Origin: Candidatus Omnitrophota bacterium
GTDB lineage: Bacteria; Omnitrophota; Gorgyraeia; Zapsychrales; Zapsychraceae
Reading direction: 5' to 3'
Length of the DNA: 64,000 bases
Assembly (NCBI GenBank): GCA_021108075.1
Contig: JAIORP010000012.1
Location: 6,539-70,538, forward strand
The position numbers were made by a program, and so were the translations under genes. How positions within the stretch are numbered: position 1 is the stretch's first letter; each line of letters starts with the position of its first letter. This document shows, in pieces, positions 1-33,308 of the stretch. Under the pieces are notes generated by a model. It worked only from the letters and a program-made list of their open reading frames with translations, ran no database searches and had not been told where the DNA came from.

Positions 1-954
1 ACACATACGGCGCCTATCTACATCAGGCTGACGGGATTTTTGAGGTGAAGGCGGGGGAGAAGAAGACCCGGGTTTCACCGAAGAAGGTTCAGTCTATCGT
101 GATGACAACGGGCGTTAGTTTGTCTTCGGACGCGGTACAGTTGGCTGTCGAAAATAATATCGATATTTTGTTTTTGGATTATTTTGGAAATCCATACGGG
201 CGAGTATGGCACGGCCGTTTGGGGTCGACAGCCCGTATCCGGCGTGCTCAGCTTGAATTTGCGCTCTCGGACGAGGGGCTTAAAATCGGTCAAAAATTTG
301 TTGATAAGAAATTTGATAATCAAATTGTGTTCTTGCGTAATCTGCGGGATAGACGGACGGCTATGTCTGCGGAAATTACCGCTGCTATTAACATGATCAA
401 AGATGCCAGAGAGAAATTGATGACAGTAGAAGGGAATGCCAATGAGATGCGCGGCAGTATTATGGGTATTGAAGGTCAGGCCGGACGGCGTTATTGGATG
501 ATTTTAAGCCGGTTGCTCCCCGAGCGTTTCCGTTTCAACGGACGTAGCCGTAATCCTGCCCAGGACGAATTTAATTGTCTTTTAAATTATGCCTACGGAG
601 TTTTATACGGGATCGTCGAACGGGCCTGTGTTCTGGCTGGTATTGATCCGTATGTCGGTTTTATTCATACTGATCATTATGCTAAGACTTCAATGGTTTT
701 TGACGTGATCGAGGGCTACCGTATTTTTGCGGACGAAACGGTTTTTAATTTGTTTTCTCGTAAGAAAGTTAAAAAGGCGCTTTTTAACCGCATGCAGAAC
801 GGTTTTGTCTTGAATAAAGAAGGGAAGGCCGTTTTGCTGGTTGATTACAATGAATATCTGGATAACAGCATTCTATATAACGGACGCCGCTTGAAACGGC
901 GTGATACCATTCAGTTTGATTTGCATAAATTGGCTAATAGTTGGATAAAAACAA

Positions 955-968
<14 letters not shown>
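1..968 (+). CDS. cas1: CRISPR-associated endonuclease Cas1 (5'-truncated by window edge)
   Basis: ORF 45..968 (GTG) stays open to nt 3 with Cas1-like residues (YGAYLHQADGIFEV...VENNIDILFLD); Cas1-sized; followed by cas2, cas4 and the CRISPR array. Confidence 0.85.
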
Positions 969-1241: not shown

Positions 1242-1261
1242 CCTGAATCAGGTGGAGCTTC

Positions 1262-1867
1262 ATGCCTAGAACAAGCGATCCTCAGCAACAATTGATGATA
1301 ACACCCAGTGAAGTGATGGAGTACTTGTACTGTCCGCGCTTTACATATTATCTTAATGTTCTGCGGATTTCGCAATATGAGAAAAATCGATATAAAGTGC
1401 TGAAAGGAAGGCAAGTTCATGAGCAGCGTCTGCGGCATAATAAAAGTTATTTACCTAAAAAGATCCCTGTGTTAAAAAAAGAAATCGATGTTTATTTGGC
1501 GGATCCCGGGTTGAGAGTGCGGGGGATTGTTGATGAAATTTTATATCTGGAAGATGGAACACTTGCACCTGTCGACTATAAATTTAGCCCGTTTAAGGAA
1601 AGTGTATATAAGACCCATAAGGTGCAGATGTGCTTATACGCGCTTTTGATTGAAAGGACGTACGGTAGACCGGTTATAAAAGGTTATATCGCGTATATCC
1701 GCGGGGGCAGTAAGACCCTGGATGTAGATATAACAGAAGGTATGAAAGCGCACTCTCAAAAAATTGTTGATGATGTTTTTGATATAATTCTATCGGAGAA
1801 ATTGCCGGAGAAGACAAAAAGCAGGGTGCGGTGCGTTGACTGTACTTATAAAAATATTTGTGTCTAA
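1262..1867 (+). CDS. cas4: Cas4 RecB-like nuclease with Fe-S cluster
   Basis: 201 aa; N-terminal Cys (YLYCPRF) and C-terminal CVDCTYKNIC cysteine cluster typical of Cas4; lies between cas2 and the array. Confidence 0.8.
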   Translation: MPRTSDPQQQLMITPSEVMEYLYCPRFTYYLNVLRISQYEKNRYKVLKGRQVHEQRLRHNKSYLPKKIPVLKKEIDVYLADPGLRVRGIVDEILYLEDGTLAPVDYKFSPFKESVYKTHKVQMCLYALLIERTYGRPVIKGYIAYIRGGSKTLDVDITEGMKAHSQKIVDDVFDIILSEKLPEKTKSRVRCVDCTYKNICV

Positions 1868-5492: not shown

Positions 5493-5630
5493 AAGCTTAT
5501 CAAGGCCGCATATGGGCTGAAAGTGTTTCGCTTAAGGACTCTATCTGTTACATCTCCTTAACTATTAATTCAACTGCTGAAATTGTTTAAATGATTTTAT
5601 AGGAAAGCGTTATAGTGAATTTTTTGGTTT

Positions 5631-9481: not shown

Positions 9482-9535
9482 TATTTGAAGACGGGCACTC
9501 CGTGAGGTCGCCTGGTTGATTGAAGGAGAAAAATA

Positions 9536-9883
9536 ATGAGTTCAAGTAAAGTCAATATAGATGAGATCAAAAAGAACATCAATAAGAAATCAGGTGATTG
9601 GATAAAGGTTGGGATGAGCACGTGCGGTATTGCCGCCGGGGCTGATAAAGTTTTAGAGAAATTTCAGGAAGAAAAAGAACGCCGAAATTTGGATATCCGT
9701 TTAGAAAAATGTGGCTGTGCCGGTATGTGTTACGCCGAGCCTTTAGTTGAAATTCGCGTTAAAGGAATGCCGCAGGTTGTATATGGAAAGGTTGACGCAA
9801 AAGTAGTTGTCGAAATCATTGATCGTCATGTTCTCCGGAAGCAATTACTGGATGATCATATATATAACATTAAGGTTCAATAA
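9536..9883 (+). CDS. hndB: Small HndB-like thioredoxin-fold [2Fe-2S] ferredoxin subunit
   Basis: 115 aa with Cys motifs STCGIAAGA...CGCAGMCYAEP; sits between the NuoE-like and NuoF-like genes as in hndABCD operons. Confidence 0.6.
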   Translation: MSSSKVNIDEIKKNINKKSGDWIKVGMSTCGIAAGADKVLEKFQEEKERRNLDIRLEKCGCAGMCYAEPLVEIRVKGMPQVVYGKVDAKVVVEIIDRHVLRKQLLDDHIYNIKVQ

Positions 9884-9964
9884 TACCAATTTCATTAAAT
9901 AATGACCAGAACCAATTCTGTTTTTCAGAGTTAAAATAGAACAATTTATTAATGGATTTGGCAT
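9883..9964 (+). repeat. MITE-like element, copy a (TIR ATACCAATTTCATTAAATAAT / TTATTAATGGATTTGGCAT)
   Basis: Terminal inverted repeats flanking a core related to copies b-h; ends 12 nt before the hndC start. Confidence 0.7.
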
Positions 9965-9976
9965 AAATGAGCGCAT

Positions 9977-11719: not shown

Positions 11720-11832
11720 GACCGGGGAGCTGATTATTAACGCGGATTGTCAGGGAACCATTGCTGAATACCATTCGCCATTTAAAAGATATTAAATGTA
11801 TTGTTGTTTATATTTATTGAGGAGGAATAGAA

Positions 11833-17375: not shown

Positions 17376-17710
17376 GTTTTCCTCCAAAGAGAATGTCGGG
17401 ATTGTTTATCGCGACCCCATCAAGTATAGCTCCGCAACTCCAATGCCTGTGAAAGTGGGATGAGAGTTAAATCCAGAAACGAAGATTAGCGCCAATAGCG
17501 CTTGTAATAGTAAGTCCCCCGGGTGTGAACCCGTGGGAAGCTATTTTTCAGGCTCATTTTGCAGTAGAAAAGACTCTATTTTGATATATAATAATATATG
17601 TTGTATACTTATTTAGTTAAGTATTAATTTTCTTTATATTATGGCATTCATTGCAAGATGAGTTGCCATCCCTAATTCTACCATCGAATTTTTAACCGTT
17701 GATTATTTTT

Positions 17711-20700
17711 ATGCCGTCAAAATCTATGTCTTACAAATTGTTTTGCCTCTTTTTGATCCTCGCGCTCGGTGTTCATATGATCATGCCTGCCACGGGTTTT
17801 GCGCAAGGGATGATATCTTTGCCCATACCAGGTGAAATGGTGAGGGTCAGCCCGGTCTTTGATCCCATGATGATCCGGGGCGTGATGGTCAGTCCGGATA
17901 ACCCCTTTGAACTGAAATTTTTAATGGATAGCGGTGACGCGATCCTGGCTGATGAAGCCCTTAAGAAGGAGGGGCAGGGATTAATCAAGTATTTTTTGGC
18001 TACATTAACGACTCCGGATGAGGATCTGTGGGTTAATCTTTCTCCTTATGAAAACGACCGTATCATGGCCAATGAATTCGGTCAGACCGAAATGGGCCGG
18101 GATATGTTGGCCCAGGATTACTTGTTGAAGCAATTGACCGCCTCTTTAATGTATCCGGAAGAAGAACTGGGTAGACGGTTTTGGGAACGTGTTTACGAAG
18201 AAGCGTACAAACGCTTCCGCACGACGAATATTTTAGTCAACACGTTTAATAAGGTATGGATCATTCCTGAGTACGCGGATGTGTATGAAAAAGACGGTGT
18301 GGCGTATATTCTTGACTGCCGGCTAAAGGTTATGTTGGAGGAAGATTATATCGCCTCCCAGCAAGTGTTGGGTAATGCTGCTTGGGCCCGTAAGCTTGGC
18401 GTGGCTGACTTGACGGAAGAAGATAAAGCGAATTTGTTCGCCTCACAGAGCGATCCTTTAAAAGCCATCCTTAAGGAAATCATTGTTCCTGAAATTGAAC
18501 GGGAAGTCAATGAAGGACGAAATTTTGGACAGCTTCGTCAGATATTCTACTCGATGATTTTAGCGACATGGTACAAAGAGCGCCTGAAAAATTCCATCCT
18601 CAATCATGTCTACTCGAATCAAAAAAAAATAAACGGCATTGATGTCGAGGACAAAGACATTAAAGAAAAGATCTACCAACAGTATATCACCGCCTTTAAA
18701 CGTGGTGTTTACAATTACATTAAAGAGCAGTATGATCCGCAAAAAGGCGAGGTCATCCCACGCAAATATTTTTCCGGCGGGGCGACGTGGATCAATATCA
18801 AGGATGTGACCCGTTACCACAAAGAACTTCCATCAAATTTCGATAAGGTTCCCCGGTCCGATTTTGCCATGCTGACCAGGTTAGATGATTCCGCCCAAGC
18901 GGCGCCGCGCGCGATGGACGCGGCGATGCTCGACACCTCAGGCCGTCAAAGAGCCCGCCAGGATGCTTTTGAAAAGCTTGTCCGTGACCGTTTTGAGTTT
19001 GATAACGTGATCGCTTCTTTTAATGATTTGCTCAAGGGAGCTAATCTTAAAGTTTATCCATCCCGCGCGGATCTCTATCAGTATGAAGGCGGTCTGGATA
19101 CCGGAAGTTACTTCTTTACAAAATTAGTCGGGTATGGCCTCGACGCTCAGAGGAAATACATCGCGTTAAGGCGCTTGATTGAGCAGGATCAGTTTTTAGA
19201 TTTTATAAGTGGAGAGGCAACCTTTTCTCGTGGTGACCTATTGCGGATATTGAAAAATAAAGAATTGGACGATGAACTGGACCTGATATTAAAAGATCAA
19301 GACAGTTATGATGATTTTATTTCGATGTTAGCAGACCGGGACTATATGGATATTCTTTTCAGTCACACAGGGACCGCTGAGATTTATATTGAAAATAACA
19401 AGTTGGTTGCTCAATTACCCAATACTCAGCTCGTCGATGTACTGGGATTTATTTCTTTTTCCCCTGAGGATCGAAATATTGAGTTCCTCCTGTCCGAGAA
19501 TTCCATGGCCCAGTTCCTTTTTGATATCCGCCGACAAGTGCTGCCATTGTTAGTTGAGGCCGCGCAGGAATATGGATGGGGATTCCGCTCTCCGCTTGAA
19601 GTTGAGCTTTCGGATGCTGTCAGGCCAATCGCAAATGTGATTTCAAGAGTCCGGGAGCAGGAATTAGAACGGTTTTTAGGCCAGGATACGTTTAGCCGCC
19701 GGGTCGAAGACTTAGAACATGGGGCTTTTCAAAATTTAAAGGATTTGTTCCAGGAAAGGAAGCAGCAGGGGCAGCCGGTAATGATTGGCATCAGCGGTTT
19801 ACCCGGAGGCGGGAAAACGCAGAAAGATAAACGTGTCGCGGCAGCGATAGCAGAAGTTGTTAAGGAAGATATTGTGATCATCGACGAAGACCGGTTTATA
19901 AAACAGCGGGCGCCCGTGGACACCCGGGGGGAAGGATTGGGAGGGAAATTTGACTGGTCTGCGCATGATCAGAGCCTTAAGGACTTGCGGGAAGGCCGCT
20001 CCGTAATGGCACAGATGTATGATCCTGTGACGGGGGGGAATCCGATGTTGGCCCTCACGGAGGCCGGAAACATCATTATTTTGAATGGAAACAGGACGAT
20101 AACCATTGTCGCTGATAAAGACCAGAATCTTTTTGACTTGATCGAAGAAGAGCATCAACCCGGTCAACCAGCGCAAGTGATCAGGCATCATTTTAAGACG
20201 GAGAACTTGACGCAGAGCGGTCCGTTTACATCAGGTTCAACGGTCTATCAATTTAAAATAGAGAACGGAAAGTTAATGGTCGGATTTCAGGGGTATGATG
20301 TCTTACGATTGGAAGAACAGAACGCGCCCCGCAACATCTTGGCCATGACACAATATGAAATTGATTTAACACGTGAAGACCTCGTCGCGCGGATCCAACT
20401 GTCGGGAGAACATAAACATCTCGAAGCGCAAAGTGTTTTTCCCCTGAACGTCGTGTCTGACCGGATGGATGTGAACGCTGTGAGTCGTGCTATTCTCTTA
20501 AAGGAAGTCATCCCGACGGACAAACCGATTGTGTTTTCAGGAACGCATGCCTATACCCAGTATAAAGATAATAAGTTCGTGTCGAATGATCAGATCTTTG
20601 ATGTGAGTCTGTATTATCAGACGCCATGGATTGTGCGCTGGACGCGTGATTGGTTAAGGAGCCAAGAACGAGGCAAGCAAAGAGGGGAACAGCTCGGGAA

Positions 20701-23700
20701 TGCGGCACGTTTTTATGACCGTTTGAATGTGGAGGAAACGATTTCCTTACAGACAAAACCTCAGGTCGTTCGCGATATTAAAATTATGGGTGTCACGGAA
20801 GCTATCGCGTATTTGTTGCACGCGTCGCCTGAAAAATTATTTGTGCATGAAGCGTATCTTCGGCAATTAGGTCTGGACCTGAATACAATTCGTGAGTGGC
20901 AACGGGAATATCTTGTTAAGCCGGAGCTGCTGAGTCTTTTTAATGAATTTAGAGAGAAAACGGAATTTGTACGGACATATGACGGCCATGATGAGTATTC
21001 GATCGGAGATTTCATTTTCAACGTGAAGAGCGGACAGAGCGCGTTATCTCAGGCTGAGATTCTTCATCATGACCGGCTTCAGGACCGGTTAAGGGGGATT
21101 TGGGGCGGCAGCACGATTATTCATTTGGATCAGCTGGGTGATGTTGTTGTCGACGGGGATAAAAAAAGGTTCGGTTATGTTTCCGTCTGGAATAAAGGCG
21201 AGCTGGTCGGAGAACGTTTGAAGGCGCTGGCTCAAAGAACGGATCCAGACAGTTTGACTGAAGCGCAAATTCTGATCGATCAATTTGTAGAGCAAGAGCA
21301 GCAACTGCACCTGAGAGGGGTTGTCGATAAAAATCCTGATATTATGACGAATCGCCGGATTTTGCCGATGGATAATCAGATGAAAGTGATGGTCGCGAGT
21401 CCGGCCGCCCAGTTGACGATTTGGGAGAATGCGTTATCTGTGTACCAGTCCCGATATGCCTCACGCCGGGCGGATGAGAATATATATTTATCTCCTCAGA
21501 TTTTACAAAGCATTCCAGAGGCGTTCAGGCCCTATTATGAACAAAAAGTAACGGAACAATTGTTGCCTTCTGCCGGACAGACAAAAGAAGACGCTTTTCA
21601 GCAATTTTACAATAATGTCTTTGAACTCGCCTTACATGTCGCGGATCGATCTCCCTTCGGAGACCTGATAAAATTTGGTTTAGTCCGTAATGAACAGGCG
21701 CATTTGATTGTTGAGAATTTGAAGAATACAGACGTGGAACATCCGGCCCTATTTGAACGCCGACTGAATCATATCCGGTTTATTTTTACACGGGCCCTCA
21801 TCGATCAGACCCGTCGTGATTATTTTGATTACGTCAATACGTCAAAAGGAAATCCGCTGCTTGCCTGGACCATGCTTTTTGTTGATTCATACCCGGAAGT
21901 TTATAATAAATTTAATTTGCTCATTAAAATTTTTCTGAACGAATTGATGGAAAATGCGGGATTGTTACAGTCCTTCCCCTCGAATGAAGAACTCTGGCAG
22001 TACATTTCAGCACGGTATCAAGAGACTTATTCTGTTAGAGGGTTAGCGACTCCCGGGTTAAGTGCATATGTGCGGCGTTCTTTTGAATATTTTATCGATA
22101 TCGCCCGTCAAATGCCGTTAAGCTGGGACTTGATACAAGAACGGCCAGCGGTCACCGGTGATTTGGCCTCAGATCCATACGAGTTTTCCCTAACATCTTA
22201 TGCCAATGAAACGCAAGGGTATCCCGATATGATGGGGGTACAAGTTTTAGATGAGCGTGAGTTTGGTCGTCTCAGGACCTATATGGATCAACCGCGTAAA
22301 GCGGTCTTGACAGACCTCGACGGCACAGCAACACTCGTTGATCAGAAATCAGGTCGAGTTAGTGAAAGCGTAAAAGAATCGCATAAGGCCAATATTCAAC
22401 GCTTTGCTGAGCTGGTCACTGATGGCGTCTTAGTTGTTCCGACCACAAACCGCCGGGAGTCAAAAGCGGTTGCTTACGCTGAAGAAATTGATCAGGTCAT
22501 CCAGCAGACTCCCGGGTATCGGTATCGTCAAGATTCTAGGACGGGCGGATCGTTTTTATTGTTTTGGGCCTCTGGGATGAATGGCATGGATGTTGGTCAG
22601 AATAAATTATTAGATGATTTTCAGTTAAAATTTAATCCGCAACAACAGGAAGAGGTCGTTCAATCCTTGCTGAAGGATCAGGTTATCGCGTCACGCGCCA
22701 CAAGACATGTTGAGATCCTTGATGGAAAAATTAATGTTTATTATTCAGGTGGTACGCGCGTAAGCCGGGCAGGTTTTTTAGATGCTATCCGGGGTGTTTT
22801 AGATGGTTTGAATACCCTGGTCCGTCAAGACGGTTTTGCCCCAAAGGGCGAATATTCTTTGCTGCGGGTTGTCGACGGGGGAGAAAATGTCATCTCGATA
22901 CTGCCGCAGGACGCTAATAAGGCCCGGCCAAAGAATTATATTCAAAATCGTTATGCTATATCTGAAGATGAAACATTGATCCTTGTTGACCAACCGCAAC
23001 AAGGACGGGCGGACAATGACCTTGTCCGTTTGTCAGGTATTCATGTTGGGGATGATATCGATGATTTACCAGAAGGAGTTATCAGCACCAAGAAAGCAAT
23101 CGGCCTGGTTGGTCCGCAGGCGGTTCAATGGCTGCTAACAAACACAGAATTTTCTTCTCCTTTTATTGAAGAAGAAACCTTCCGCTCGATACTGGCAAAG
23201 AATATCCCACCGACACGGAATGTCGTCATTGAAAAGGTCGGAAACTTGCGTTTGGTGAGAACTCCCTGGCGCAAAAGACGTGTTAATCCGACAACCCCTT
23301 TTAGCGCGGTTGTTCTTCCCTTTGATCCTGGCCTTTTTAATTTTCGGAACGAAAACATTGATGAAAGCGATATCTTTTTCGAAGGCATTATCGAAGGGCA
23401 GGAAACAACGTTATTGTTGCAAAAGTCTCCCTTTGCCCCCGATCATTTTCTTGTAATTCCTGAGCGTGATCTTGAGCGTCCGCAGGTATTGCAGCCAAAG
23501 GACATCGCTTTTGGTGCCCGGTTTGTCCGTTCGCAAGCTTTGCCGCATTTGCGTTTGGGGTTTACAAGTTTAAAAGGCGGCGCATCTATTAATCAGCTGC
23601 ATATGCAGGCCTTCACGACGATCGAAGACCTTTCCGCGTTAGAATTGGTTCCTAAAAAAGAGGAGTACCGTATTCAAGGCGTCAGTGTGAATGTATTGGA

Positions 23701-26700
23701 AACAATGGAGGACTATCATTATAACGGCCTGATGTTCCATTCAGAGAACATTGAAGACCTTTCTGTTGTTGTTTATCGATACATCGAAATATTGAACCGG
23801 TTTGATATCCCCTATACCGTTAATTGGACCCAGGTCGGGGTGTATGTTATGCCGGTAAGAAGTTCCGTCGGGATACAAGGACGATTGGGTTTTTATGAAC
23901 ATATGGGTTTTGTTATTTCTAAAGATGTCAGCGAAAGCCGAGAGCAGGCTGTCGCAAAGTATGCTGATGAAATGCAATCAGCATCTCTGAACGATGCGGA
24001 CTTTATCCTAACGCATCAGTTTACCTTCTCGACCGAAGAGATTGAAGCTGCATCATTGAGGGAATTATCTTCCCGGTTAAATGAAGGAACGGACCGTCCG
24101 TCTGACGCGGCGATGTTGGGTGGCAGGGATGACAGGAATGAAGAGCGGCTTAATCTGGAGGCGTTAGAAAAGATAAATCTGCAAGCCTACGGGCCCGGGG
24201 GGCGCCATGGACTGATTGACCTGGAAAAATCTTACAATGATTCGCGTGTTTTTATGAGTTATATTTTCGGGTTAGCCGGGGCCGGGATGGTTGGTCTTCC
24301 GACAGCACTAATGACTCAGGACATCTATTCGTCCGCGACGGGGGCGCTCGTTGGTGCCGGGGTCGCGATCGCGACATATGTAAAATTATTTCCACAATCA
24401 AAATATAAAAATATTGAAGAGGGTATCCAGGCGTTGGAGAAAGCGCGTACTCAAGAGGAGATCCAGTCTGCGCGAGGTTTATTTATCGATGGAATGGCAG
24501 GCACAGATTCAGTATTGCTTCATCGTTTGGGCTTAACAGGTTTGGAAACATCGGAAAAATTATTTGCTAAAATGATGGGCGCAGAACAAACAGAGCTTGT
24601 TCTTCCTTCTGATATCCAACCCATCCAGGCTGATCAGATCAGGCAATTAGAAATAAATATGGGACTGGCTGGACTGGCTGATTTGTTAAAGATTGTTGTT
24701 CATGAAAAATTCGCGTACTTTTCCGTTGTTCCATCAATTCCGACCGATGAGCAACGGAAGTCATTAAGGGCCGCGATATCAGACCCTGATGTGATCAGGC
24801 GGCTTTTTAAAAACGTATCTGATGATAGCAATACGATAGAACGCCTGCAAGAAAGGGTATGGCACGGGATCTTTGATCTGTTGTACCGGCAGGATGGAGA
24901 CTCTATATTCTCTCCGGAGTATTTAGAGCTTTACAGGGATAATGAGATTTTTATGGAACAGGGGGTTTTGCGGGAGCTTGCCAATGATCAAGAACGCTCT
25001 CAGGAAGATTATCTGGTTGACGCGGTGAAATCAGAAATTAAAGCGGACAAACAGTATAAAATTCTTGTTTTCGCGACTGGCTCGGGAGCACTGATTAATA
25101 ATTTGTTGCAACAAATTTCAAATATTGGTGAGATCGTTGAATATGACCGTAGCGCTACTTCCAATGAAACGGCTGATCGCAAACGCAGAGAATTGTTGCC
25201 GCCCGATTTATATAATAAAGTTCGGCAGATTACAGCTGATGTTAGAGATTTTAAATCTGAGCTGAATGGCGAAGAGTTTGATTTTATTATTTCCACGGCA
25301 TCATTGCGCCTGATGAGTTCCGAAGCCCGGGAAAGCATATTAGAATTTTTGCAGGAAAAAGCAGGGTTGCGCAAGGGGGGATCGTTTATCTATATGGATA
25401 CCAGGGAGCATTCAGAAATCATGGGGCAGGCGGTCGACCAGATGCGGACGTCCGGTTTTAATGTGAGCGTTGATGATAAGTTTTTCGCGGGCCACAGAGA
25501 CGCGATGTTTTATATTTTTGTGCATCAATACCGAAAGAATCAAATCTTTAGAAATTTTATTGATCAGTTAATGAGCTTAAAGCGTAAAGATAATTTATAC
25601 AATTTTCTTTATGAGATGGCCGGTCACAGGAGAATCAAATTCGAATTATTAAAGGCGACGCAAACATCTGAGAGTTTGAGGAAAAAGAATTTTGAATCAA
25701 TGGTGAATCGATTTTCTGACGCCACAAAACAGATGTTTGGTTCTGTGTTTGAAGATGCACGGGTGACAGTCCAAAAGGGACCCAGTTCACGAATCACAAT
25801 CCGTTTATTTGAAAAGGATCCAGATGTTGATTATTTAGACAGCTATGATATCAGCGTCGATACCGCGCTGGGCCAGGTGTATGCGGTCACTCTTTATGAT
25901 GGGCGGAGTATCGGGAAAAACACTTTAATTGTTGGACGCGCGGTCTTGCAGGATCCAACAGTGGATAGAGTCATTCTGACGCAGCATGTGTTGTCTTCAA
26001 AATATGGATATGATGAAGCGTTAAAGGAATTGAAGTCCGTGTTATCTGAAATATTGCCTGAGGGGATGTTAAATTTTGATGAATCGGAAACATTGGATCG
26101 TTTAGCGACACATGCCGCGGGGTTAACAAAGAGTGATATGTCGGAGGCTATTAACGCCATTCCGGTCGATGCGGAAAATTACGAAGATATGATCATTGAA
26201 GCGTTTCGTTCATATTCTCGAACAGTCTATCCTTCACAAGAGCGTTTGCCTTTCCGGGGAGCGGCAAAGATTTTTCGAGAGAATGCCTCGATGGCGATGC
26301 GTTTGGCCGGCGAAGAGGGTTATTCATCAATTAGCGGACTCGTTTCTTTACCTGATGGTTTTCAAAATTTAGCGTTATATCAGAGGCTTGGTTTTAATCC
26401 GATAATCCCGGAAGGAAGAAGCGATTATTTTGGACAGGTGCAAGCAGCGTTAACAGATAAGAGCGCGGGCGCGACCTTAAAGGAAAAGGCCTGGTATTTG
26501 TCGCAACGTCTGGAGCAATTGATATTACTCGTTCAAAAAGATATTCCTGATCAAGACGCGGCGATGTTGGGCAAAATCAATCGTTATCAACTTAAAAATG
26601 GGGCAACGGTTTTAGGCCCGTTATCTGAGGACGCGTTTAATCAGATGGCAGGCGAAGACGCGTTTTTTCTTGTCAGAGATAAGGAAAAAGGAGTCTATGC

Positions 26701-29700
26701 TCAAAAGACAACCCCCGAGGAGCAGGGTTATAGTGTTGTTGCAACGGAATTTAGTGAGATCGAAACAATTTTTAAGGATGCCGGTGTGGATATGGTCACT
26801 CATATTTTGTCGACGTTATGGGAGAATCCAGATCGTGAAGTCGTCGTGTTAGCTGATGGAGTTGGCCGGGGAGTGGAATTGCAGGGACTTGTTGAAAAAT
26901 TAAAGAAAGAGGTAGAGGCTTTCGGCCTTGATATATCAAAAATCAAAATTTATGGTCTTTCAGACATGTATTTTCAGGACTGGCAGGACGCAGACCCGAT
27001 GATCAATTTTATTCTTGATGATCGAGAGAACTTGCCGGACTATTTCTCGAGAAGGCAAATTGACGTGATGATGAGTTATAAGGGCATTTCTCATATCGGT
27101 CAGCAAGCGGAATATATCAATCATATGAGAATGATGAAGCCGCACTTTAAATACAACGCCTTAATTGTCCATGATTTTTATTTTGGGAATTTAGACGCCG
27201 TTGAATCGATGCTGGAGCGGAATGGTTTTTCGGTTAAGAGGGAACGGTTGCCGGGTATGACGGAGTTATTTGTTCTGCGACCGGTCGATTTTAATAAAGA
27301 TGCGCCTGCCGATGTATCAGAAAACACGAATAGGGAGGTTAAAACGGTGCCGTATCAACAGGCGGAGTTTTTTGAACTCACGCCTGATTACAAACTAGCA
27401 GGAACATACACCACCCGAAAGGGAGAAGAATTCAATATTTATTTTAAAGATAATGATTTTGTGTTGATGAACGTTGAAGGGCAGTTTATCGGTAAGGTTG
27501 TATTTGATTTTACGGAAGAGGGTGTCGCGGAAATTGATTTAGTGCGCGTTTCAGAGTATGTTCAGGGGGAAGGATATCTGTATGATTTGATTGATGCTAT
27601 ATCTTTTTATTTAGGACAATTGGGAGCCGAAAGTATTGTCGTTACGGAAATTTATAATCCATTTTTGTCCTATGTTTTGACAAAAGAATATGGATTTCAT
27701 CCTGAGATTAAAGAGGGTGATGAACGCAAACAATTGATTATTGGTTCACGAGAGCCAGGTGAGAGACTGCCCGTTTATCTTTCCGGAGAAGGCGCTAAGA
27801 AAGTTTTCTCGCCGGGCTCAGGGTATGATGTTCTATTAGAAAAGTTAGATATCCTTGATACCCCTCCCGATGATGGCGTTGTCAGCTATGTGTTTGTTGA
27901 TTATGTTAAGGACGTTAATAACGCGCGATACCAACAGCAAATAAGTTCTGTCAAAAACAGGATGGCGATTGATGGAGAAATTCTTGAGCAAAGGAAGAAC
28001 GAATATCAAACAAAATTTCAGCGACGAGGAACAGACGACATGTCAGAAGATCACCGCGATCAAGCGATGTTGATAACCTATACGGAAAAAGAGTGGCAGC
28101 AAATAGACCAGACGTATCAAATTTTGCAGCAGTTGGCGCAGGTGGTTGATACTCAGATGGAACAGAGTGGTATGGTTGAAATTTTTGATGTCTTCCGTCA
28201 ATGGCTCAATCAAGGACCGCGGGATGCTTTGGCCCAAATCGAATTGATTGAGGACCCTCAGGAACAACAGGAAGCTTACCAGAAATTAAGCGCTGCCCTA
28301 TCACGTTTTGTTCATGAATTTGAGACAACATATGATCATGTATCGAAAAGATGGGGGCAGGAAATCGCGGGCGTTAACGGCCGGTCCTTTGTTCAATTTG
28401 ATACGGATGGGAAGGTCCTTTCTTATCCATGGTTTGATTTGACGTATGACCTGAATGACAAGTTGGATAAACTGGCCACCTTTATTCTTGGCTGGGGGAA
28501 GCTTTTGGTTACGGATGGCGCTGTTGCCAAAGATAATTTTTTGCTTTTGGTCAACAAATTGGAATCTACGTACCGCATATGGGATGGTTACCGGCAATAT
28601 TTGCGCCATGTTGCGGATCCGCTGTCAATTCAAGATAGTCAGATCGCGGATAATCAAGAAGAAAGAACACAGCCGCGTTTGGGTTATGATGAGTTTTTAT
28701 TGCCGTACCGCAATGCGTTATTAGCGCGCGATGCGGACCAGGATACTTTGGAGCAACCGCGTGAAGAATATGTTGCCCTGGTGGATGCGCAGGGGAATTT
28801 TTTGCGGGCTGTTCCACGTTCTGAGCGTAAAAATAAGGCGCCGGATGAATTTACTCAGGGTGCTGTTATTATTGTTGTCGATGAGGATGGGAATGTTTTG
28901 ATGCAGCAGCGATCAGAAGGGAAGATGGAAGGGCACGAAACCTTTGGCCCCATGGATTGGACCATCGGGGGGCATCGTTCTGATGAGGATGCCGACATTG
29001 AAGCCGCTGCTTTGCGCGAAGGCAATGAAGAGGCCGGGGGCATTATCAATTTTAAGAAATCAAATCTGGTGCAGATCGATCAGCGTCCTGTTAATCCGGA
29101 CACGGATGGCCGCTGGGTGCGCTCAACGTTCATTTATGTGGTCAGTGCAACAGAGAAGAACAATATTCAGGAACAGATGATCGAGGGCTGGCAAGGGAAT
29201 GACGAAGTTGACGGCTGGGAGTGGTGGGGGCAAGATGATTTTACAACAGAGGCAAAAACGAGCCAGAAATGGTCAACCGTGATTGATCTGTTAAGAGACA
29301 TTCCTGATTTTCCGGCGATGGTAGAAACGGCTGTTGTGGGTGTTACGCAGCGTCGCCGAGATAGCACGGTTCGAGACGGGGCAGCACTGACAACCTATAC
29401 GGAAAAAGAGTGGCAGCAAATCGACCGGACCTACCAGACGCTGCAGGAGATCGCCTTAAGCGTTCAGGGGAAATTGCAGGAAACAGGTATGACCACTCTC
29501 TTTCTACGCATCGACCAGTTCCTGGTCCAGGAGGACCCACGGCTGATGTTTGAACAATTACAAGACTTACCGAGCAAAGAGGCTCAAGATCGGGTTTATG
29601 CGGTAATAAACACGGCCATGCAGGGCTATGCCCTGAATATCAAAACCATGTATCAGGAAAACATATCAGAGATTGACGCTCAACTCGCCCGGATCAAAGG

Positions 29701-30313
29701 CCGATCCTTTGTTCAATTTAGCGCGGAGGGGGCATTGGAAGCATACTCTGCAGAGGAGTTGATCTATGACATCAAAGATAAGATAGGCAAAATAACGACT
29801 AATATTTTTTCCTGGTGGGATATGCTGTCATCAGACGGTGATCTCCCAAGGGAACAATTTTTGTTTATGCTGGATCAGTTTGAATATGCGAGTGAGGCAT
29901 TCCATCAGTACCGTTCTTATCTGGGACACATTCTTCAACCAATTCGTATTCTGGATGAAGATATCGTTGACAACCAAGAAGAACAAAGCCACCCACGGCA
30001 AAGCTATGATCAATTTTTACTGCCCTACCGTGATGCGTTGATCGCGCGTGATACCGCAGTCCAGGACGCTGCCATGCTGGGCAGAGAGCAAAGTGACAAT
30101 GTCGGTGGTATCGATCTTAATCCCGCCAATTTGAATCTGCGCATCAAGCGTGACGGGGATGGTCAGCCGTTGCCGTTTGATGCCCAACCGATCGATAGTA
30201 TTAACATTGAAGGACTGGTCCCTGTGATCATTAATGTTACACCGATCATAAACCTGCCGCTATTGCTTGGAGCGGCTGAGCCGGGTGAAGTCGATCAGGT
30301 CCTATCCCTTTAA
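17711..30313 (+). CDS. Giant (~4,200 aa) secreted or membrane-associated multidomain protein
   Basis: Uninterrupted 12.6-kb ORF with an N-terminal signal peptide. Domains by motif: PRK/uridine-kinase-like P-loop (GISGLPGGGKT...YDPVTG), HAD (LTDLDGTA...GDDIDD), HIT/GalT-like (HFLVIPERD, INQLHMQ), hydrophobic hairpin, class-I MTase-like (ILVFATGSGAL), GNAT-like (QGEGYLYDL), Nudix box (GGHRSDEDADIEAAALREGNEEAGG) and tandem ~230-aa repeats. The C-terminal ~75 aa are shared with the ORF at 47473. Confidence 0.8.
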   Translation: MPSKSMSYKLFCLFLILALGVHMIMPATGFAQGMISLPIPGEMVRVSPVFDPMMIRGVMVSPDNPFELKFLMDSGDAILADEALKKEGQGLIKYFLATLTTPDEDLWVNLSPYENDRIMANEFGQTEMGRDMLAQDYLLKQLTASLMYPEEELGRRFWERVYEEAYKRFRTTNILVNTFNKVWIIPEYADVYEKDGVAYILDCRLKVMLEEDYIASQQVLGNAAWARKLGVADLTEEDKANLFASQSDPLKAILKEIIVPEIEREVNEGRNFGQLRQIFYSMILATWYKERLKNSILNHVYSNQKKINGIDVEDKDIKEKIYQQYITAFKRGVYNYIKEQYDPQKGEVIPRKYFSGGATWINIKDVTRYHKELPSNFDKVPRSDFAMLTRLDDSAQAAPRAMDAAMLDTSGRQRARQDAFEKLVRDRFEFDNVIASFNDLLKGANLKVYPSRADLYQYEGGLDTGSYFFTKLVGYGLDAQRKYIALRRLIEQDQFLDFISGEATFSRGDLLRILKNKELDDELDLILKDQDSYDDFISMLADRDYMDILFSHTGTAEIYIENNKLVAQLPNTQLVDVLGFISFSPEDRNIEFLLSENSMAQFLFDIRRQVLPLLVEAAQEYGWGFRSPLEVELSDAVRPIANVISRVREQELERFLGQDTFSRRVEDLEHGAFQNLKDLFQERKQQGQPVMIGISGLPGGGKTQKDKRVAAAIAEVVKEDIVIIDEDRFIKQRAPVDTRGEGLGGKFDWSAHDQSLKDLREGRSVMAQMYDPVTGGNPMLALTEAGNIIILNGNRTITIVADKDQNLFDLIEEEHQPGQPAQVIRHHFKTENLTQSGPFTSGSTVYQFKIENGKLMVGFQGYDVLRLEEQNAPRNILAMTQYEIDLTREDLVARIQLSGEHKHLEAQSVFPLNVVSDRMDVNAVSRAILLKEVIPTDKPIVFSGTHAYTQYKDNKFVSNDQIFDVSLYYQTPWIVRWTRDWLRSQERGKQRGEQLGNAARFYDRLNVEETISLQTKPQVVRDIKIMGVTEAIAYLLHASPEKLFVHEAYLRQLGLDLNTIREWQREYLVKPELLSLFNEFREKTEFVRTYDGHDEYSIGDFIFNVKSGQSALSQAEILHHDRLQDRLRGIWGGSTIIHLDQLGDVVVDGDKKRFGYVSVWNKGELVGERLKALAQRTDPDSLTEAQILIDQFVEQEQQLHLRGVVDKNPDIMTNRRILPMDNQMKVMVASPAAQLTIWENALSVYQSRYASRRADENIYLSPQILQSIPEAFRPYYEQKVTEQLLPSAGQTKEDAFQQFYNNVFELALHVADRSPFGDLIKFGLVRNEQAHLIVENLKNTDVEHPALFERRLNHIRFIFTRALIDQTRRDYFDYVNTSKGNPLLAWTMLFVDSYPEVYNKFNLLIKIFLNELMENAGLLQSFPSNEELWQYISARYQETYSVRGLATPGLSAYVRRSFEYFIDIARQMPLSWDLIQERPAVTGDLASDPYEFSLTSYANETQGYPDMMGVQVLDEREFGRLRTYMDQPRKAVLTDLDGTATLVDQKSGRVSESVKESHKANIQRFAELVTDGVLVVPTTNRRESKAVAYAEEIDQVIQQTPGYRYRQDSRTGGSFLLFWASGMNGMDVGQNKLLDDFQLKFNPQQQEEVVQSLLKDQVIASRATRHVEILDGKINVYYSGGTRVSRAGFLDAIRGVLDGLNTLVRQDGFAPKGEYSLLRVVDGGENVISILPQDANKARPKNYIQNRYAISEDETLILVDQPQQGRADNDLVRLSGIHVGDDIDDLPEGVISTKKAIGLVGPQAVQWLLTNTEFSSPFIEEETFRSILAKNIPPTRNVVIEKVGNLRLVRTPWRKRRVNPTTPFSAVVLPFDPGLFNFRNENIDESDIFFEGIIEGQETTLLLQKSPFAPDHFLVIPERDLERPQVLQPKDIAFGARFVRSQALPHLRLGFTSLKGGASINQLHMQAFTTIEDLSALELVPKKEEYRIQGVSVNVLETMEDYHYNGLMFHSENIEDLSVVVYRYIEILNRFDIPYTVNWTQVGVYVMPVRSSVGIQGRLGFYEHMGFVISKDVSESREQAVAKYADEMQSASLNDADFILTHQFTFSTEEIEAASLRELSSRLNEGTDRPSDAAMLGGRDDRNEERLNLEALEKINLQAYGPGGRHGLIDLEKSYNDSRVFMSYIFGLAGAGMVGLPTALMTQDIYSSATGALVGAGVAIATYVKLFPQSKYKNIEEGIQALEKARTQEEIQSARGLFIDGMAGTDSVLLHRLGLTGLETSEKLFAKMMGAEQTELVLPSDIQPIQADQIRQLEINMGLAGLADLLKIVVHEKFAYFSVVPSIPTDEQRKSLRAAISDPDVIRRLFKNVSDDSNTIERLQERVWHGIFDLLYRQDGDSIFSPEYLELYRDNEIFMEQGVLRELANDQERSQEDYLVDAVKSEIKADKQYKILVFATGSGALINNLLQQISNIGEIVEYDRSATSNETADRKRRELLPPDLYNKVRQITADVRDFKSELNGEEFDFIISTASLRLMSSEARESILEFLQEKAGLRKGGSFIYMDTREHSEIMGQAVDQMRTSGFNVSVDDKFFAGHRDAMFYIFVHQYRKNQIFRNFIDQLMSLKRKDNLYNFLYEMAGHRRIKFELLKATQTSESLRKKNFESMVNRFSDATKQMFGSVFEDARVTVQKGPSSRITIRLFEKDPDVDYLDSYDISVDTALGQVYAVTLYDGRSIGKNTLIVGRAVLQDPTVDRVILTQHVLSSKYGYDEALKELKSVLSEILPEGMLNFDESETLDRLATHAAGLTKSDMSEAINAIPVDAENYEDMIIEAFRSYSRTVYPSQERLPFRGAAKIFRENASMAMRLAGEEGYSSISGLVSLPDGFQNLALYQRLGFNPIIPEGRSDYFGQVQAALTDKSAGATLKEKAWYLSQRLEQLILLVQKDIPDQDAAMLGKINRYQLKNGATVLGPLSEDAFNQMAGEDAFFLVRDKEKGVYAQKTTPEEQGYSVVATEFSEIETIFKDAGVDMVTHILSTLWENPDREVVVLADGVGRGVELQGLVEKLKKEVEAFGLDISKIKIYGLSDMYFQDWQDADPMINFILDDRENLPDYFSRRQIDVMMSYKGISHIGQQAEYINHMRMMKPHFKYNALIVHDFYFGNLDAVESMLERNGFSVKRERLPGMTELFVLRPVDFNKDAPADVSENTNREVKTVPYQQAEFFELTPDYKLAGTYTTRKGEEFNIYFKDNDFVLMNVEGQFIGKVVFDFTEEGVAEIDLVRVSEYVQGEGYLYDLIDAISFYLGQLGAESIVVTEIYNPFLSYVLTKEYGFHPEIKEGDERKQLIIGSREPGERLPVYLSGEGAKKVFSPGSGYDVLLEKLDILDTPPDDGVVSYVFVDYVKDVNNARYQQQISSVKNRMAIDGEILEQRKNEYQTKFQRRGTDDMSEDHRDQAMLITYTEKEWQQIDQTYQILQQLAQVVDTQMEQSGMVEIFDVFRQWLNQGPRDALAQIELIEDPQEQQEAYQKLSAALSRFVHEFETTYDHVSKRWGQEIAGVNGRSFVQFDTDGKVLSYPWFDLTYDLNDKLDKLATFILGWGKLLVTDGAVAKDNFLLLVNKLESTYRIWDGYRQYLRHVADPLSIQDSQIADNQEERTQPRLGYDEFLLPYRNALLARDADQDTLEQPREEYVALVDAQGNFLRAVPRSERKNKAPDEFTQGAVIIVVDEDGNVLMQQRSEGKMEGHETFGPMDWTIGGHRSDEDADIEAAALREGNEEAGGIINFKKSNLVQIDQRPVNPDTDGRWVRSTFIYVVSATEKNNIQEQMIEGWQGNDEVDGWEWWGQDDFTTEAKTSQKWSTVIDLLRDIPDFPAMVETAVVGVTQRRRDSTVRDGAALTTYTEKEWQQIDRTYQTLQEIALSVQGKLQETGMTTLFLRIDQFLVQEDPRLMFEQLQDLPSKEAQDRVYAVINTAMQGYALNIKTMYQENISEIDAQLARIKGRSFVQFSAEGALEAYSAEELIYDIKDKIGKITTNIFSWWDMLSSDGDLPREQFLFMLDQFEYASEAFHQYRSYLGHILQPIRILDEDIVDNQEEQSHPRQSYDQFLLPYRDALIARDTAVQDAAMLGREQSDNVGGIDLNPANLNLRIKRDGDGQPLPFDAQPIDSINIEGLVPVIINVTPIINLPLLLGAAEPGEVDQVLSL

Positions 30314-30557: not shown

Positions 30558-30624
30558 ATGATCCTACGGGTGTGTGCACCCAAAGAATTAAATCCGTTTA
30601 ATTTCAATATCAAAGGTGAAGTCT

Positions 30625-32442: not shown

Positions 32443-32467
32443 ATCATTGATAACATAAGGACGATTT

Positions 32468-33187: not shown

Positions 33188-33308
33188 TTGTTCTATTTTA
33201 ATTCTGATATTTTTGCCTTAGAGTCGAGGAAATCAGAACCGGTTTTGGTAATGATACCAATGATTGAATTTGGTCTCGTTATTCGTACTATTATTTAATG
33301 GAATGGGT
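33168..33308 (-). repeat. MITE-like element, copy c (reverse orientation, composite); left TIR overlaps the last codons and stop of hoxU
   Basis: GATACCAAATCCATTAAGTAATTGTTCTATTTTAATTCTGATATTTTTGCCTTAGAGTCGAG...ATTATTTAATGGAATGGGTCT matches the reverse complement of copy b. An extra partial TIR pair sits at 33250..33280. Confidence 0.65.

What the first reader, a model, noticed from the sequence alone, without database searches (positions are those of the whole stretch)
17800..18870. Novel ~350-aa N-terminal domain shared by the giant protein and the dual-GGDEF protein
Residues ~40-390 of the giant ORF and ~40-390 of the ORF at 47473 align over their whole length. The counterpart nt range is 47590..48640. 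Shared blocks include PDNP(F/L)xFxFL(M/L)D(S/A)GD, LIKYFLA(T/A)LT(T/I)P(D/E)E(D/E)(L/M)WVNLSPYE, LAQDYLLKQLTASLM, IPEIEREVNEG, QLRQI(F/Y), WYK and PRKYFSGG. I cannot assign this module to a known family. Its position directly after a signal peptide in two otherwise unrelated proteins suggests a common anchoring, targeting or ligand-binding function.
Basis: seen in the sequence. Interest (0 to 1): 0.75.

Follow-up and report, generated by a model that had tools for sequence, protein, structure and literature searches.

The report
New Omnitrophota leader domain framing exported enzymes
The shared ~325-residue block is real and is the constant front end of a very large, undescribed protein family restricted to the candidate phylum Omnitrophota. 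It sits behind a secretion signal, has a predicted fold with no known relative, is paired with a constant ~75-residue tail, and brackets swappable enzyme cargo of the kind normally found inside cells.

Summary

The domain defines a large family:
- 8,410 clusters at 50% identity, with every named hit from Omnitrophota-type MAGs.
- Several copies per genome, often in tandem.
- The domain always follows a long Sec-type signal peptide (A-x-A|Q).
- In 63 of 70 complete members it co-occurs with the C-terminal module GGIDLNP...PVIINxTP..LPxLLG. Four of the seven exceptions are split genes.

Cargo between the two ends is unrelated from member to member. It includes GGDEF, kinase, methyltransferase, NUDIX, enolase, PEPCK and glutamate dehydrogenase. 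In 73% of members the cargo has no membrane-spanning segment.

A short motif, D-x-A-M-[LVI], is enriched about 20-fold. It marks the junctions after the N-domain, between cargo modules and before the C-module.

My best reading is inferred, not shown. The N-domain is a constant handle that a conserved envelope partner uses to target, anchor or assemble exported modular enzyme arrays. It is unlikely to be a ligand sensor. I found no published description. The function remains untested.

The parts
17699..30313 (+). Giant ORF (4204 codons from TTG 17699; likely start ATG 17711). Family member with multi-module cargo.
   Evidence: Cargo Pfam hits: Zeta_toxin/P-loop, SAM-methyltransferase, GNAT-like, NUDIX.
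17711..17803 (+). Sec/SPase-I-type signal peptide of the giant (MPSKSMSYK-LFCLFLILALGVHMIMPATGFA | Q).
   Evidence: Family-wide: n-region net charge +3.3, uncharged stretch of about 18 residues, A at -1 and Q at +1.
17804..18781 (+). N-domain of the giant (residues 36-361, QGMISLPIPG ... PRKYFSGG).
   Evidence: (HMM E 1.7e-150).
18860..18874 (+). First linker motif, DFAML (D-x-A-M-L).
18917..18931 (+). Linker motif DAAML.
24104..24118 (+). Inter-module motif DAAML, before the methyltransferase module.
26555..26569 (+). Inter-module motif DAAML.
28058..28072 (+). Inter-module motif DQAML. It is the first residues of the duplicated 226-aa module.
29375..29389 (+). Variant motif DGAAL. It is the first residues of the second copy of the duplicated module.
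30062..30301 (+). C-terminal module of the giant (QDAAML...VGGIDLNP...GLVPVIINVTPIINLPLLLG...). It is followed by the tail LSL and the stop codon.
   Evidence: (HMM E 2.7e-27).
47473..51309 (+). Dual-GGDEF ORF (1278 aa). NCBI MCD4779131.1, annotated 'diguanylate cyclase [Candidatus Omnitrophota bacterium]'.
47473..47583 (+). Signal peptide of the GGDEF protein (...LILISTPVPLVRA | Q).
47584..48537 (+). N-domain of the GGDEF protein (residues 38-355).
   Evidence: (HMM E 2.2e-153).
48565..48579 (+). Linker motif DLAML.
51055..51282 (+). C-terminal module of the GGDEF protein. It begins with DQAML (51061-51075), then VGGIDLDP...GFIPVIMNVTPVQTLPIFLG.
   Evidence: (HMM E 3.9e-23).

Best explanation
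The block is the N-terminal constant domain (~325 aa, new alpha+beta fold) of an Omnitrophota-specific family of Sec-exported modular proteins.

Every member is built the same way:
1. A long cleavable signal peptide.
2. The N-domain.
3. A disordered linker, usually carrying D-x-A-M-[LVI].
4. One to many unrelated cargo modules, often separated by the same motif.
5. The motif again.
6. A ~75-aa C-terminal module (GGIDLNP...PVIINxTP..LPxLLG).
7. A short polar tail.

I propose that the N-domain is not catalytic and not a sensor. I read it as a constant 'handle' that, after Sec export, is recognised by one conserved envelope partner. Its role would be to target, retain or assemble the cargo at or beyond the outer envelope. 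The C-module would be the second half of the same frame, and the DxAM motifs would be sites where a common factor, most simply a protease, recognises or releases cargo modules.

Shown: the architecture, the phylum restriction, the copy number, the signal-peptide features, the N/C co-occurrence, the motif enrichment and position, and the absence of any known homologue or fold neighbour.

Inferred: export itself, the existence of a partner machine, the role of the C-module, and cleavage at DxAM.
For: - **Homology and scale.** The two window copies match at E 2e-119. The family has 1,577 hits among 90%-identity clusters and 8,410 representatives at 50% identity, 6,817 of them with E <= 1e-30. The domain is always at residues ~1-370 of proteins up to 5,312 aa. 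In GTDB species genomes at least 585 loci were confirmed. The best 80 are all Omnitrophota-type MAGs, with at least 4-7 copies per MAG and up to 4 copies within 25 kb.
- **Source of the window.** It is an Omnitrophota MAG contig.
- **Signal peptide.** In 190 members the n-region carries a net +3.3 charge, the uncharged stretch is about 18 residues, the cleavage motif is A-x-A|Q, and the net charge after it is 0.
- **N/C frame.** 63 of 70 complete ORFs carry the C-module at the extreme C-terminus. Four of the seven exceptions have a C-module ORF just downstream. The remaining C-only ORFs are those cut at their 5' end by the edge of the fetched locus. Among independent metagenome representatives, 105 of 135 carry it.
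- **Constancy.** N-domain pairwise identity is 58 +/- 5% across 173 members whose cargo is unrelated. N and C distances co-vary (r 0.41, Mantel 0/500).
- **Cargo diversity.** Cargo includes enolase, glutamate dehydrogenase, PEPCK, UDPGP, PGM, RmlD, PP2C, histidine kinase, response regulator, methyltransferases, and HEAT and TPR repeats.
- **No membrane coupling.** 48 of 66 members have no TM-like segment in the cargo.
- **DxAM motif.** About 116 occurrences against about 5.5 expected. The first sits 311-360 aa after the N-domain start and the last 6-15 aa before GGIDL. It begins both copies of a duplicated module in the giant. It lies in low-pLDDT linker.
Against: - No partner machinery was identified. 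Clustering neighbour genes across 81 loci recovers only generic response regulators, histidine kinases and ABC ATPases.
- Export of nucleotide-dependent enzymes (GGDEF, kinases, PEPCK, NUDIX) has no obvious purpose in a periplasm or on a surface.
- No experimental localisation or processing data exist for any member.
- About 40% of members lack an exact DxAM motif.
- No protease domain was recognised in the family or as a conserved neighbour.
- The signal-peptide call rests on sequence rules that I computed myself, not on a trained predictor.
- The AFDB fold library was unavailable, so uncharacterised structural relatives cannot be excluded.
Confidence: 0.45

Rival explanations
1. Self-assembly frame. 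The N-domain and the C-module bind each other, either in cis as a clasp or in trans head-to-tail. Because both are near-identical across paralogues, different members could co-polymerise into an enzyme-decorated surface coat or scaffold, working like cohesin-dockerin or donor-strand complementation.
For: - N and C co-occur almost obligately and co-diverge.
- In the AF2 model of the minimal member P0090, the short C-module strands reach pLDDT up to 95. Whole-chain pTM is 0.72 although 19% of residues are disordered, which suggests the C-module is placed against the N-domain.
- Velamenicoccus, an Omnitrophota genus, is described as a 'coated coccus' (PMC10066038).
Against: - No coordinates or PAE were available, so the N-C contact is inferred from scores only.
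- No multimer prediction was possible.
- The co-divergence can be explained by simple whole-gene ancestry.
Confidence: 0.2
2. Membrane-tethered cytoplasmic enzymes. The N-terminal hydrophobic segment is an uncleaved anchor, the whole protein stays on the cytoplasmic face, and the N-domain is a membrane-proximal scaffold that organises metabolic and signalling enzymes.
For: - The cargo is overwhelmingly cytoplasm-type and nucleotide- or cofactor-dependent.
- Most members have no further TM segment.
- A 2026 preprint reads many long Omnitrophota proteins as membrane-anchored with cytoplasmic content (10.64898/2026.06.07.730766).
Against: - The positive-inside rule predicts the opposite orientation: the n-region is +3.3 and the flank after it is 0.
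- A canonical A-x-A|Q cleavage motif follows an uncharged stretch of about 18 residues in nearly all members.
Confidence: 0.13
3. Processing or folding domain. The N-domain is an intramolecular chaperone or an autoprotease that acts on the DxAM junctions of its own polyprotein.
For: - DxAM motifs sit exactly at module borders and next to both constant ends.
- The N-domain has many invariant polar residues: N85, D112, K116, E241, N243, R252, Q253, K265.
Against: - There is no invariant Cys or His, and Ser is only nearly invariant.
- It has no similarity to any peptidase family or fold.
- About 40% of members have no exact DxAM motif, yet their N-domain is equally conserved.
Confidence: 0.1
4. 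Periplasmic sensor or ligand-binding domain that controls the downstream output domains. This was one of the reader's options.
For: - It lies after a signal peptide and upstream of GGDEF, histidine-kinase and response-regulator domains in some members.
- 8 of 66 members have a TM-like segment within 150 aa after the domain.
Against: - 48 of 66 members have no TM segment to relay a signal.
- Much of the cargo is metabolic enzymes or repeats.
- Conservation is uniform across thousands of paralogues, unlike diversifying sensor domains.
- The obligate C-terminal module is unexplained by this model.
- There is no match to Cache, CHASE, PBP or other sensor families.
Confidence: 0.07

Closest known systems
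TPS domain of TpsA exoproteins (two-partner secretion, type Vb)
   Same: A ~250-300-aa constant domain sits directly after a long Sec signal peptide at the N-terminus of very large, modular, cargo-variable exoproteins. It serves as a secretion handle rather than an enzyme. This is what I think the N-domain works like.
   Different: - TPS is a right-handed beta-helix, whereas this domain is predicted alpha+beta.
- It has no Pfam match and no fold match.
- No recurrent dedicated partner gene of any kind was found among the neighbours; they were not screened specifically for Omp85/TpsB.
- TpsA proteins have no obligate conserved C-terminal module.
C-terminal sorting domains of secreted protein families (T9SS CTD; also LPXTG, PEP-CTERM)
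   Same: A conserved module of about 70 aa sits at the extreme C-terminus of many otherwise unrelated signal-peptide proteins in one genome. In T9SS it is removed at a linker just upstream, which resembles the DxAM motif sitting 6-15 aa before GGIDL.
   Different: - No match to any Pfam or NCBIfam sorting-signal model.
- There is no TM helix plus basic tail as in LPXTG or PEP-CTERM.
- The hydrophobic stretch is proline-rich.
- None of those systems has a paired N-terminal constant domain.
MARTX toxins and other polyprotein-like effector arrays
   Same: Conserved N- and C-terminal regions frame a variable array of cytoplasm-type enzymatic effector modules. Short conserved junction motifs lie between the modules; in MARTX these are cut after Leu by the cysteine protease domain (my own knowledge).
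   Different: - MARTX toxins use type I secretion and have no signal peptide.
- Their frames are glycine-rich repeats.
- They carry a recognisable CPD protease.
- None of these features is present here.
Omnitrophota giant proteins ('Archaeovorins', dockerin-type giants; West-Roberts et al. 2023, 10.1101/2023.11.21.568195)
   Same: Same phylum and the same odd cargo repertoire: GGDEF, NUDIX, HAD, methyltransferase, HATPase, PPDK_N, and TPR and HEAT repeats. The window's 4204-aa protein resembles a small version of these.
   Different: - Those proteins exceed 25 kb and have many TM helices, SecA-like domains and C39/S8 peptidase domains.
- The searched passages of the papers that reached me do not mention this N-domain, the C-module or the DxAM motif.
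DUF896 (PF05979)
   Same: A weak match of about 50 residues to a helical hairpin inside the N-domain, seen in 8 of 57 members (best E 5e-5; 0.037 for the giant).
   Different: - In the window protein the match is below Pfam's gathering score (14.3 vs 24.2 bits).
- It covers 15% of the domain.
- It is absent from most members.
- I treat it as a chance helical resemblance.

Membership tests
Sec/SPase I signal peptide | Positively charged n-region, hydrophobic h-region, small residues at -3 and -1 before the cleavage site | tested here: met
   190 family N-termini: net charge +3.3, uncharged stretch median 18, A at -1 and Q at +1. Giant ...TGFA|Q, GGDEF protein ...VRA|Q. This is a rule-based test; no trained predictor was available.
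TPS domain (PF05860, two-partner secretion) | Sequence match to the Haemagg_act model, with its NPNL/NPNGI motifs | tested here: not met
   No Pfam hit at E <= 1 in the two window copies or in 57 family members.
TPS domain (PF05860, two-partner secretion) | Right-handed parallel beta-helix fold | tested here: not met
TPS domain (PF05860, two-partner secretion) | Adjacent TpsB/Omp85 transporter gene | tested here: inconclusive
   No recurrent neighbour cluster other than response regulators, histidine kinases and ABC ATPases in 81 loci. The neighbours were not individually scanned for Omp85 or POTRA domains.
T9SS C-terminal domain (PF18962 / TIGR04183), for the paired C-module | Match to the Por_Secre_tail model | tested here: not met
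   No Pfam or NCBIfam hit on the C-terminal regions of either protein at E <= 1.
LPXTG, PEP-CTERM and other sortase-type signals, for the paired C-module | Short motif, then a TM helix, then a basic tail at the extreme C-terminus | tested here: not met
   The hydrophobic stretch GLVPVIINVTPIINLPLLL holds three prolines. It is followed by acidic or polar tails 8-87 aa long, counted from the hydrophobic core. No NCBIfam sorting-signal model was hit.
Periplasmic sensor domains (Cache, CHASE, PBP-like) | Match to a sensor-domain family, and a TM helix linking it to a cytoplasmic output | tested here: not met
   No Pfam match. No TM-like segment between the N-domain and cargo in the window proteins, and none in the cargo of 48 of 66 complete members.
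RTX / LapA-like type I secretion adhesins | No Sec signal peptide, RTX nonapeptide repeats, C-terminal T1SS signal, di-alanine LapG site in the N-terminal retention module | tested here: not met
   A Sec-type signal peptide is present. No RTX or HemolysinCabind hit. The first Ala of DAAML is not conserved (D-x-A-M).
DUF896 (PF05979) | Score at or above the Pfam gathering threshold (24.2 bits) | tested here: not met
   13.7-14.3 bits for the giant. It is hit in only 8 of 57 members, over about 50 residues.

The most novel reading that the evidence does not exclude
Omnitrophota possess a phylum-specific protein export or delivery system of a previously unknown type. In this reading, a new-fold N-terminal domain and a matching C-terminal module act as a universal carrier frame for polyprotein-like strings of cytoplasm-type enzymes. 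The strings are exported by Sec, handled by unknown envelope machinery and cut at D-x-A-M junctions. The released enzymes are deployed on the cell surface or inside prey or host cells, which would make this family the main effector arsenal of these ultra-small predators or symbionts.
Probability: 0.3. Interest if true: 0.88.

Novelty: categorically new. Interest (0 to 1): 0.74.

Why it matters
Omnitrophota are widespread, uncultured, ultra-small bacteria thought to be predators or symbionts. How they act on other cells is unknown, and attention has gone to their giant genes.

This finding identifies a simple, searchable signature: signal peptide, N-domain, DxAM junctions and C-module. The signature unites thousands of mid-sized and large proteins, several per genome. 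It shows that enzymes normally confined to the cytoplasm (enolase, PEPCK, diguanylate cyclases, kinases, NUDIX hydrolases) are systematically placed behind an export signal.

It gives three concrete handles for experiments and annotation:
- A new domain family and fold to solve.
- A candidate processing motif that can be tested directly in existing metaproteomes.
- A defined candidate 'secretome' or effector set for every Omnitrophota genome.

If the frame is a delivery system, it would be a new bacterial secretion or sorting principle. If the proteins are instead retained, it would point to an unusual way of organising metabolism at the envelope.

Tried and rejected
- **Known families.** Pfam, NCBIfam, PHROGs and PADLOC scans gave nothing for the two window copies and the C-module. 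A further Pfam scan of 57 family members gave only a sub-threshold DUF896 match. A profile search of PDB sequences returned one irrelevant hit outside the domain.
- **Conserved neighbour gene as a candidate transporter or protease.** Clustering about 900 neighbour ORFs from 81 loci gave only generic response-regulator, histidine-kinase and ABC families. The CPBP/Rce1-like protease with TPR repeats two genes upstream of the GGDEF protein (44615-45937) does not recur.
- **DxAM as an internal translation start or DNA-level element.** Rejected. There is no Shine-Dalgarno-like enrichment (9.8% vs 15% at other internal Met codons) and no synonymous-site conservation.
- **Viral origin.** Only 3 hits in 2.9 million IMG/VR contigs.
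- **Literature.** Motif strings such as WVNLSPYE, PRKYFSGG and GGIDLN returned no paper. Term searches within three Omnitrophota papers returned no passage describing the domain. The paper on SpeD fusion proteins in Omnitrophica is unrelated.
- **LapG-type di-alanine site.** Rejected because the first Ala is not conserved.
- **Extreme C-terminal [LIVM]S.[LIVM](N) ending as a universal signal.** It occurs in only 36 of 143 members.
Full report

Yes. The giant ORF (17699..30313, 4204 codons) and the ORF at 47473..51309 (1278 aa) were translated. BLASTP aligns giant residues 15-363 with residues 21-357 of the second protein at 52% identity, 72% positives and E 2e-119.

tblastn of the domain against all six frames of the window finds only these two copies. 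The same comparison shows that the two proteins also share about 70 C-terminal residues (56% identity, E 3e-18).

The window comes from a 118.9-kb metagenome contig. NCBI names its GGDEF protein 'diguanylate cyclase [Candidatus Omnitrophota bacterium]', MCD4779131.1.

**2. Anatomy in the window**

Coordinates were checked by translation.

| Feature | Giant | GGDEF protein |
|---|---|---|
| Signal peptide | 17711-17803 (...ATGFA\|Q) | 47473-47583 (...LVRA\|Q) |
| N-domain | 17804-18781, ends PRKYFSGG | 47584-48537 |
| D-x-A-M-L motifs | 18860, 18917, 24104, 26555, 28058, 29375 (variant DGAAL), 30065 | DLAML 48565, DQAML 51061 |
| C-module | 30062-30301 | 51055-51282 |

- The giant's cargo has recognisable P-loop/zeta-toxin-like, SAM-methyltransferase, GNAT-like and NUDIX modules. 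The motif positions partition them.
- A 226-aa module is duplicated in the giant (residues 3454-3679 and 3893-4118, 39% identity, E 7e-59). Both copies begin exactly at the motif.
- The second protein carries two GGDEF domains.
- Neither protein has a transmembrane-like segment between the N-domain and the cargo.

**3. No known family or fold**

- Pfam, NCBIfam, PHROGs and PADLOC give no significant hit to the N-domain or the C-module.
- Scanning 57 family members individually against Pfam at E <= 1 yields only a sub-threshold match of about 50 residues to DUF896, in 8 members.
- A family profile finds nothing relevant among PDB sequences.
- AlphaFold2 with a 122-sequence alignment gives a confident alpha+beta model: mean pLDDT 83.2, pTM 0.81, six strands and about ten helices.
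- Foldseek gives a best E of 0.31 against 350,542 PDB chains and 0.11 against BFVD.
- The AFDB library was not available.

**4. It is a very large, phylum-restricted family**

- A profile search of the 90%-identity protein collection finds 1,577 proteins. The best 120 are all 48-59% identical to the query. Nearly all named ones are Candidatus Omnitrophica or Omnitrophota MAGs, and the few carrying other labels are equally similar, so they are probably binning errors.
- An exhaustive HMMER search of 1.84 billion 50%-identity representatives finds 8,410 proteins at E <= 1e-3 and 6,817 at E <= 1e-30. Among the 150 best hits listed, the domain always lies within the first ~525 residues of the protein, usually starting at residue 1. 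Those proteins are 420 to 5,312 aa long.
The best 80 are all Omnitrophota-type MAGs, some mislabelled 'uncultured Planctomycetales'.
- Single MAGs contribute 4-7 copies within those 80 loci alone. Copies are often tandem: 16 of the 80 loci hold 2-3 copies within about 20 kb, and one contig has four copies in 25 kb.
- Only 3 hits occur in 2.9 million viral contigs.

**5. Signal peptide**

In 190 members that begin with Met:
- The pre-sequence before the conserved LNLPxPG motif is most often 41-45 aa.
- The n-region has a mean net charge of +3.3.
- The uncharged stretch has a median length of 18.
- The c-region reads A-x-A|Q.
- The net charge just after it is about 0.

This is a long, classical Sec/SPase-I signal by the (-3,-1) and positive-inside rules. 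I applied those rules myself, because no trained predictor was available.

**6. The N-domain is half of a frame**

An HMM of the C-module finds it at the extreme C-terminus of 63 of 70 N-domain ORFs that end in a stop codon. Four of the seven exceptions have a C-module ORF immediately downstream on the same strand, so they are split or masked genes. The remaining ORFs with only a C-module are those cut at their 5' end by the edge of the fetched locus. Among 135 independent metagenome representatives, 105 carry it. The rest are short and probably truncated.

The C-module profile finds 395 proteins, and the few named ones are mostly labelled Omnitrophota (one carries a Bathyarchaeia label, probably a binning error). 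Its second half (G-F/L-x-PVIINxTPxxNLPxLLG) is hydrophobic but proline-rich. It is followed by a polar tail 8-87 aa long, measured from the hydrophobic core.

Across 173 paired members:
- N-domain identity is strikingly uniform: mean 58%, SD 5%, 1-99% quantiles 46-69%.
- C-module identity averages 34%.
- The two distance matrices correlate (r 0.41; 0 of 500 Mantel permutations reach this value).

**7. Cargo**

Pfam scanning of the post-N-domain regions of 47 complete members finds 51 different families, each in only 1-3 members. They include:
- Enolase, glutamate dehydrogenase, GTP-PEPCK, RmlD, alanine dehydrogenase, UDP-glucose pyrophosphorylase and phosphoglucomutase.
- PPDK_N, PP2C, HATPase_c, response-regulator receiver and methyltransferases.
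- HEAT and TPR repeats.

One example was checked in full. L022 9878..14593 (Ca. Aceula lacicola MAG) reads signal peptide, N-domain, enolase (Enolase_C E 5e-67), DxAM, C-module.

48 of 66 complete members have no TM-like segment in the cargo. Only 8 have one within 150 aa after the N-domain.

**8. The junction motif**

An unbiased count of gapped pentamers in the 126,115 residues downstream of the N-domains puts D.AM[LVITMA] at the top, alongside the C-module motifs. There are about 116 occurrences against about 5.5 expected. D.AML alone occurs 40 times against 1.4 expected, and only 5 times in 239,890 residues of neighbouring ORFs.

- The flanks of the motif are not conserved.
- The first occurrence lies 311-360 residues after the N-domain start, just after PRKYFSGG.
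- The last lies 6-15 residues before GGIDL.
- Long members have up to 13 occurrences.
- In the AF2 model it lies in low-confidence linker.
- It is a peptide-level signal. There is no Shine-Dalgarno-like enrichment upstream of its ATG (9.8% vs 15% background) and no extra conservation at synonymous positions.
- About 40% of members lack the exact motif.

**9. How it most likely works**

What is shown is a constant signal peptide, N-domain and C-module bracketing freely exchangeable cargo, in many paralogues per genome, with a shared junction motif.

That pattern is the hallmark of substrate families of a dedicated sorting, secretion or assembly pathway. Comparable cases are TPS domains in TpsA proteins, T9SS C-terminal domains and the conserved arms of MARTX toxins. 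The uniform conservation of the N-domain argues that it contacts one conserved partner rather than diverse ligands.

I therefore propose that it is a post-Sec targeting, retention or assembly handle, and that the DxAM sites are recognition or release points (confidence about 0.45).

The main alternatives are:
- **N-to-C self-association into a coat or scaffold.** This is supported indirectly by the P0090 model, where C-module strands reach pLDDT 95 and whole-chain pTM is 0.72 despite 19% disorder. I had no coordinates or PAE.
- **An uncleaved anchor with cytoplasmic cargo.** This fits the cargo but contradicts the charge distribution and the cleavage motif.
- **A processing or chaperone domain.**
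- **A sensor domain.** This is the least likely.

No conserved neighbouring gene points to the machinery.

The paradox of nucleotide-dependent enzymes placed behind an export signal is unresolved. Delivery into prey or host cells would resolve it. That idea fits the predatory or symbiotic lifestyle proposed for the phylum (PMC10066038; 10.1101/2023.11.21.568195), but it is speculation.

**10. Comparison with what is known, and novelty**

Term searches within the papers on Omnitrophota giant proteins returned passages on the same odd cargo repertoire, C39/S8 peptidase domains, SecA-like domains and TM helices. None of those passages mentions this N-domain, the C-module or the DxAM motif. Motif strings return no paper.

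By sequence, structure and architecture the frame matches no described sorting or secretion signal (see the membership table). I rate it as categorically new at the level of domain family and system.

Three caveats apply:
- AFDB and HHpred could not be run.
- The function is inferred.
- No experimental data exist.

Noticed in passing
window 45-5500: Cas1 (45..968) and Cas4 (1262..1867) are followed by a CRISPR array of about 48 copies of the 37-nt repeat GTCGAGAAACCTCATCCAGTAAAACAAGGATTGAAAC (about 2033-5500, spacing 71-74). Two adjacent spacers are identical (2297-2326 and 2368-2397).
   Followed up: partly
window 28058-28735 and 29375-30052: A 226-aa module of unknown function is duplicated inside the giant protein (39% identity, E 7e-59). 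Each copy starts at a DxA(M/A)L motif with TYTEKEWQQID and ends with FLLPYRxALxARD. The first copy is followed by the NUDIX domain.
   Followed up: partly
window 44615-45937: A CPBP/Rce1-like intramembrane protease fused to TPR repeats lies two genes upstream of the GGDEF family member. It would be an attractive candidate processing enzyme, but it does not recur next to family genes in the other 80 loci.
   Followed up: partly
window 48950-51000 (GGDEF protein residues ~494-930): Pfam's best stretches cover only profile positions about 2-110 of 161 in each of the two GGDEF domains. By eye, the remaining strand (for example ITFSAGITIF) follows after roughly 90 residues, which suggests a large insertion in each cyclase domain. 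The active-site motifs read GGEEF and GGEEV.
   Followed up: no
window 30302-30313 and 51283-51309; family-wide C-termini: After the C-module, tails cluster at about 22-25 or about 39-48 residues, measured from the hydrophobic core. About a quarter end in [LIVM]-S-x-[LIVM](-N), for example LSL, ISLLN, VSSLN. This may be a further terminal signal.
   Followed up: partly
L022 9878-14593: In the enolase-bearing family member, Enolase_C (946-1260) is followed by an Enolase_N match (1279-1373), with a second Enolase_N stretch elsewhere. This suggests a duplicated or permuted enolase arrangement inside the frame.
   Followed up: no
L082 (ENA ERZ26872896 NODE_3007) vs window 46318-47472: On a second contig, an identical copy of the GGDEF protein is preceded by a DDE_3 transposase and a TIR/SEFIR gene instead of the window's 201-aa ORF. 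This indicates strain-level rearrangement immediately upstream.
   Followed up: no
window 8630-13578 and 30616-41506: The giant gene is inserted between two hydrogenase clusters. Upstream lie a response-regulator-2Fe2S fusion, a NuoF-like protein, a [FeFe] hydrogenase, a HypB-like protein and an MCP. Downstream lie NuoE/F- and NuoG-like proteins, NiFe hydrogenase small and large subunits, and HypF/D/E.
   Followed up: no
L001-L080 record titles; names: Many MAGs carrying this Omnitrophota-specific family are labelled 'uncultured Planctomycetales', and single proteins are labelled Heimdallarchaeota, Pacearchaeota or Bathyarchaeia. These are probably mislabelling or bin contamination. The domain could serve as a phylum marker.
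   Followed up: no
giant residues 2184-2227 (window ~24248-24379): Two adjacent weakly hydrophobic Gly/Ala-rich segments (YIFGLAGAGMVGLPT and ATGALVGAGVAIATY; KD 1.2-1.45) follow the third DAAML motif. This may be a membrane hairpin inside the cargo.
   Followed up: no
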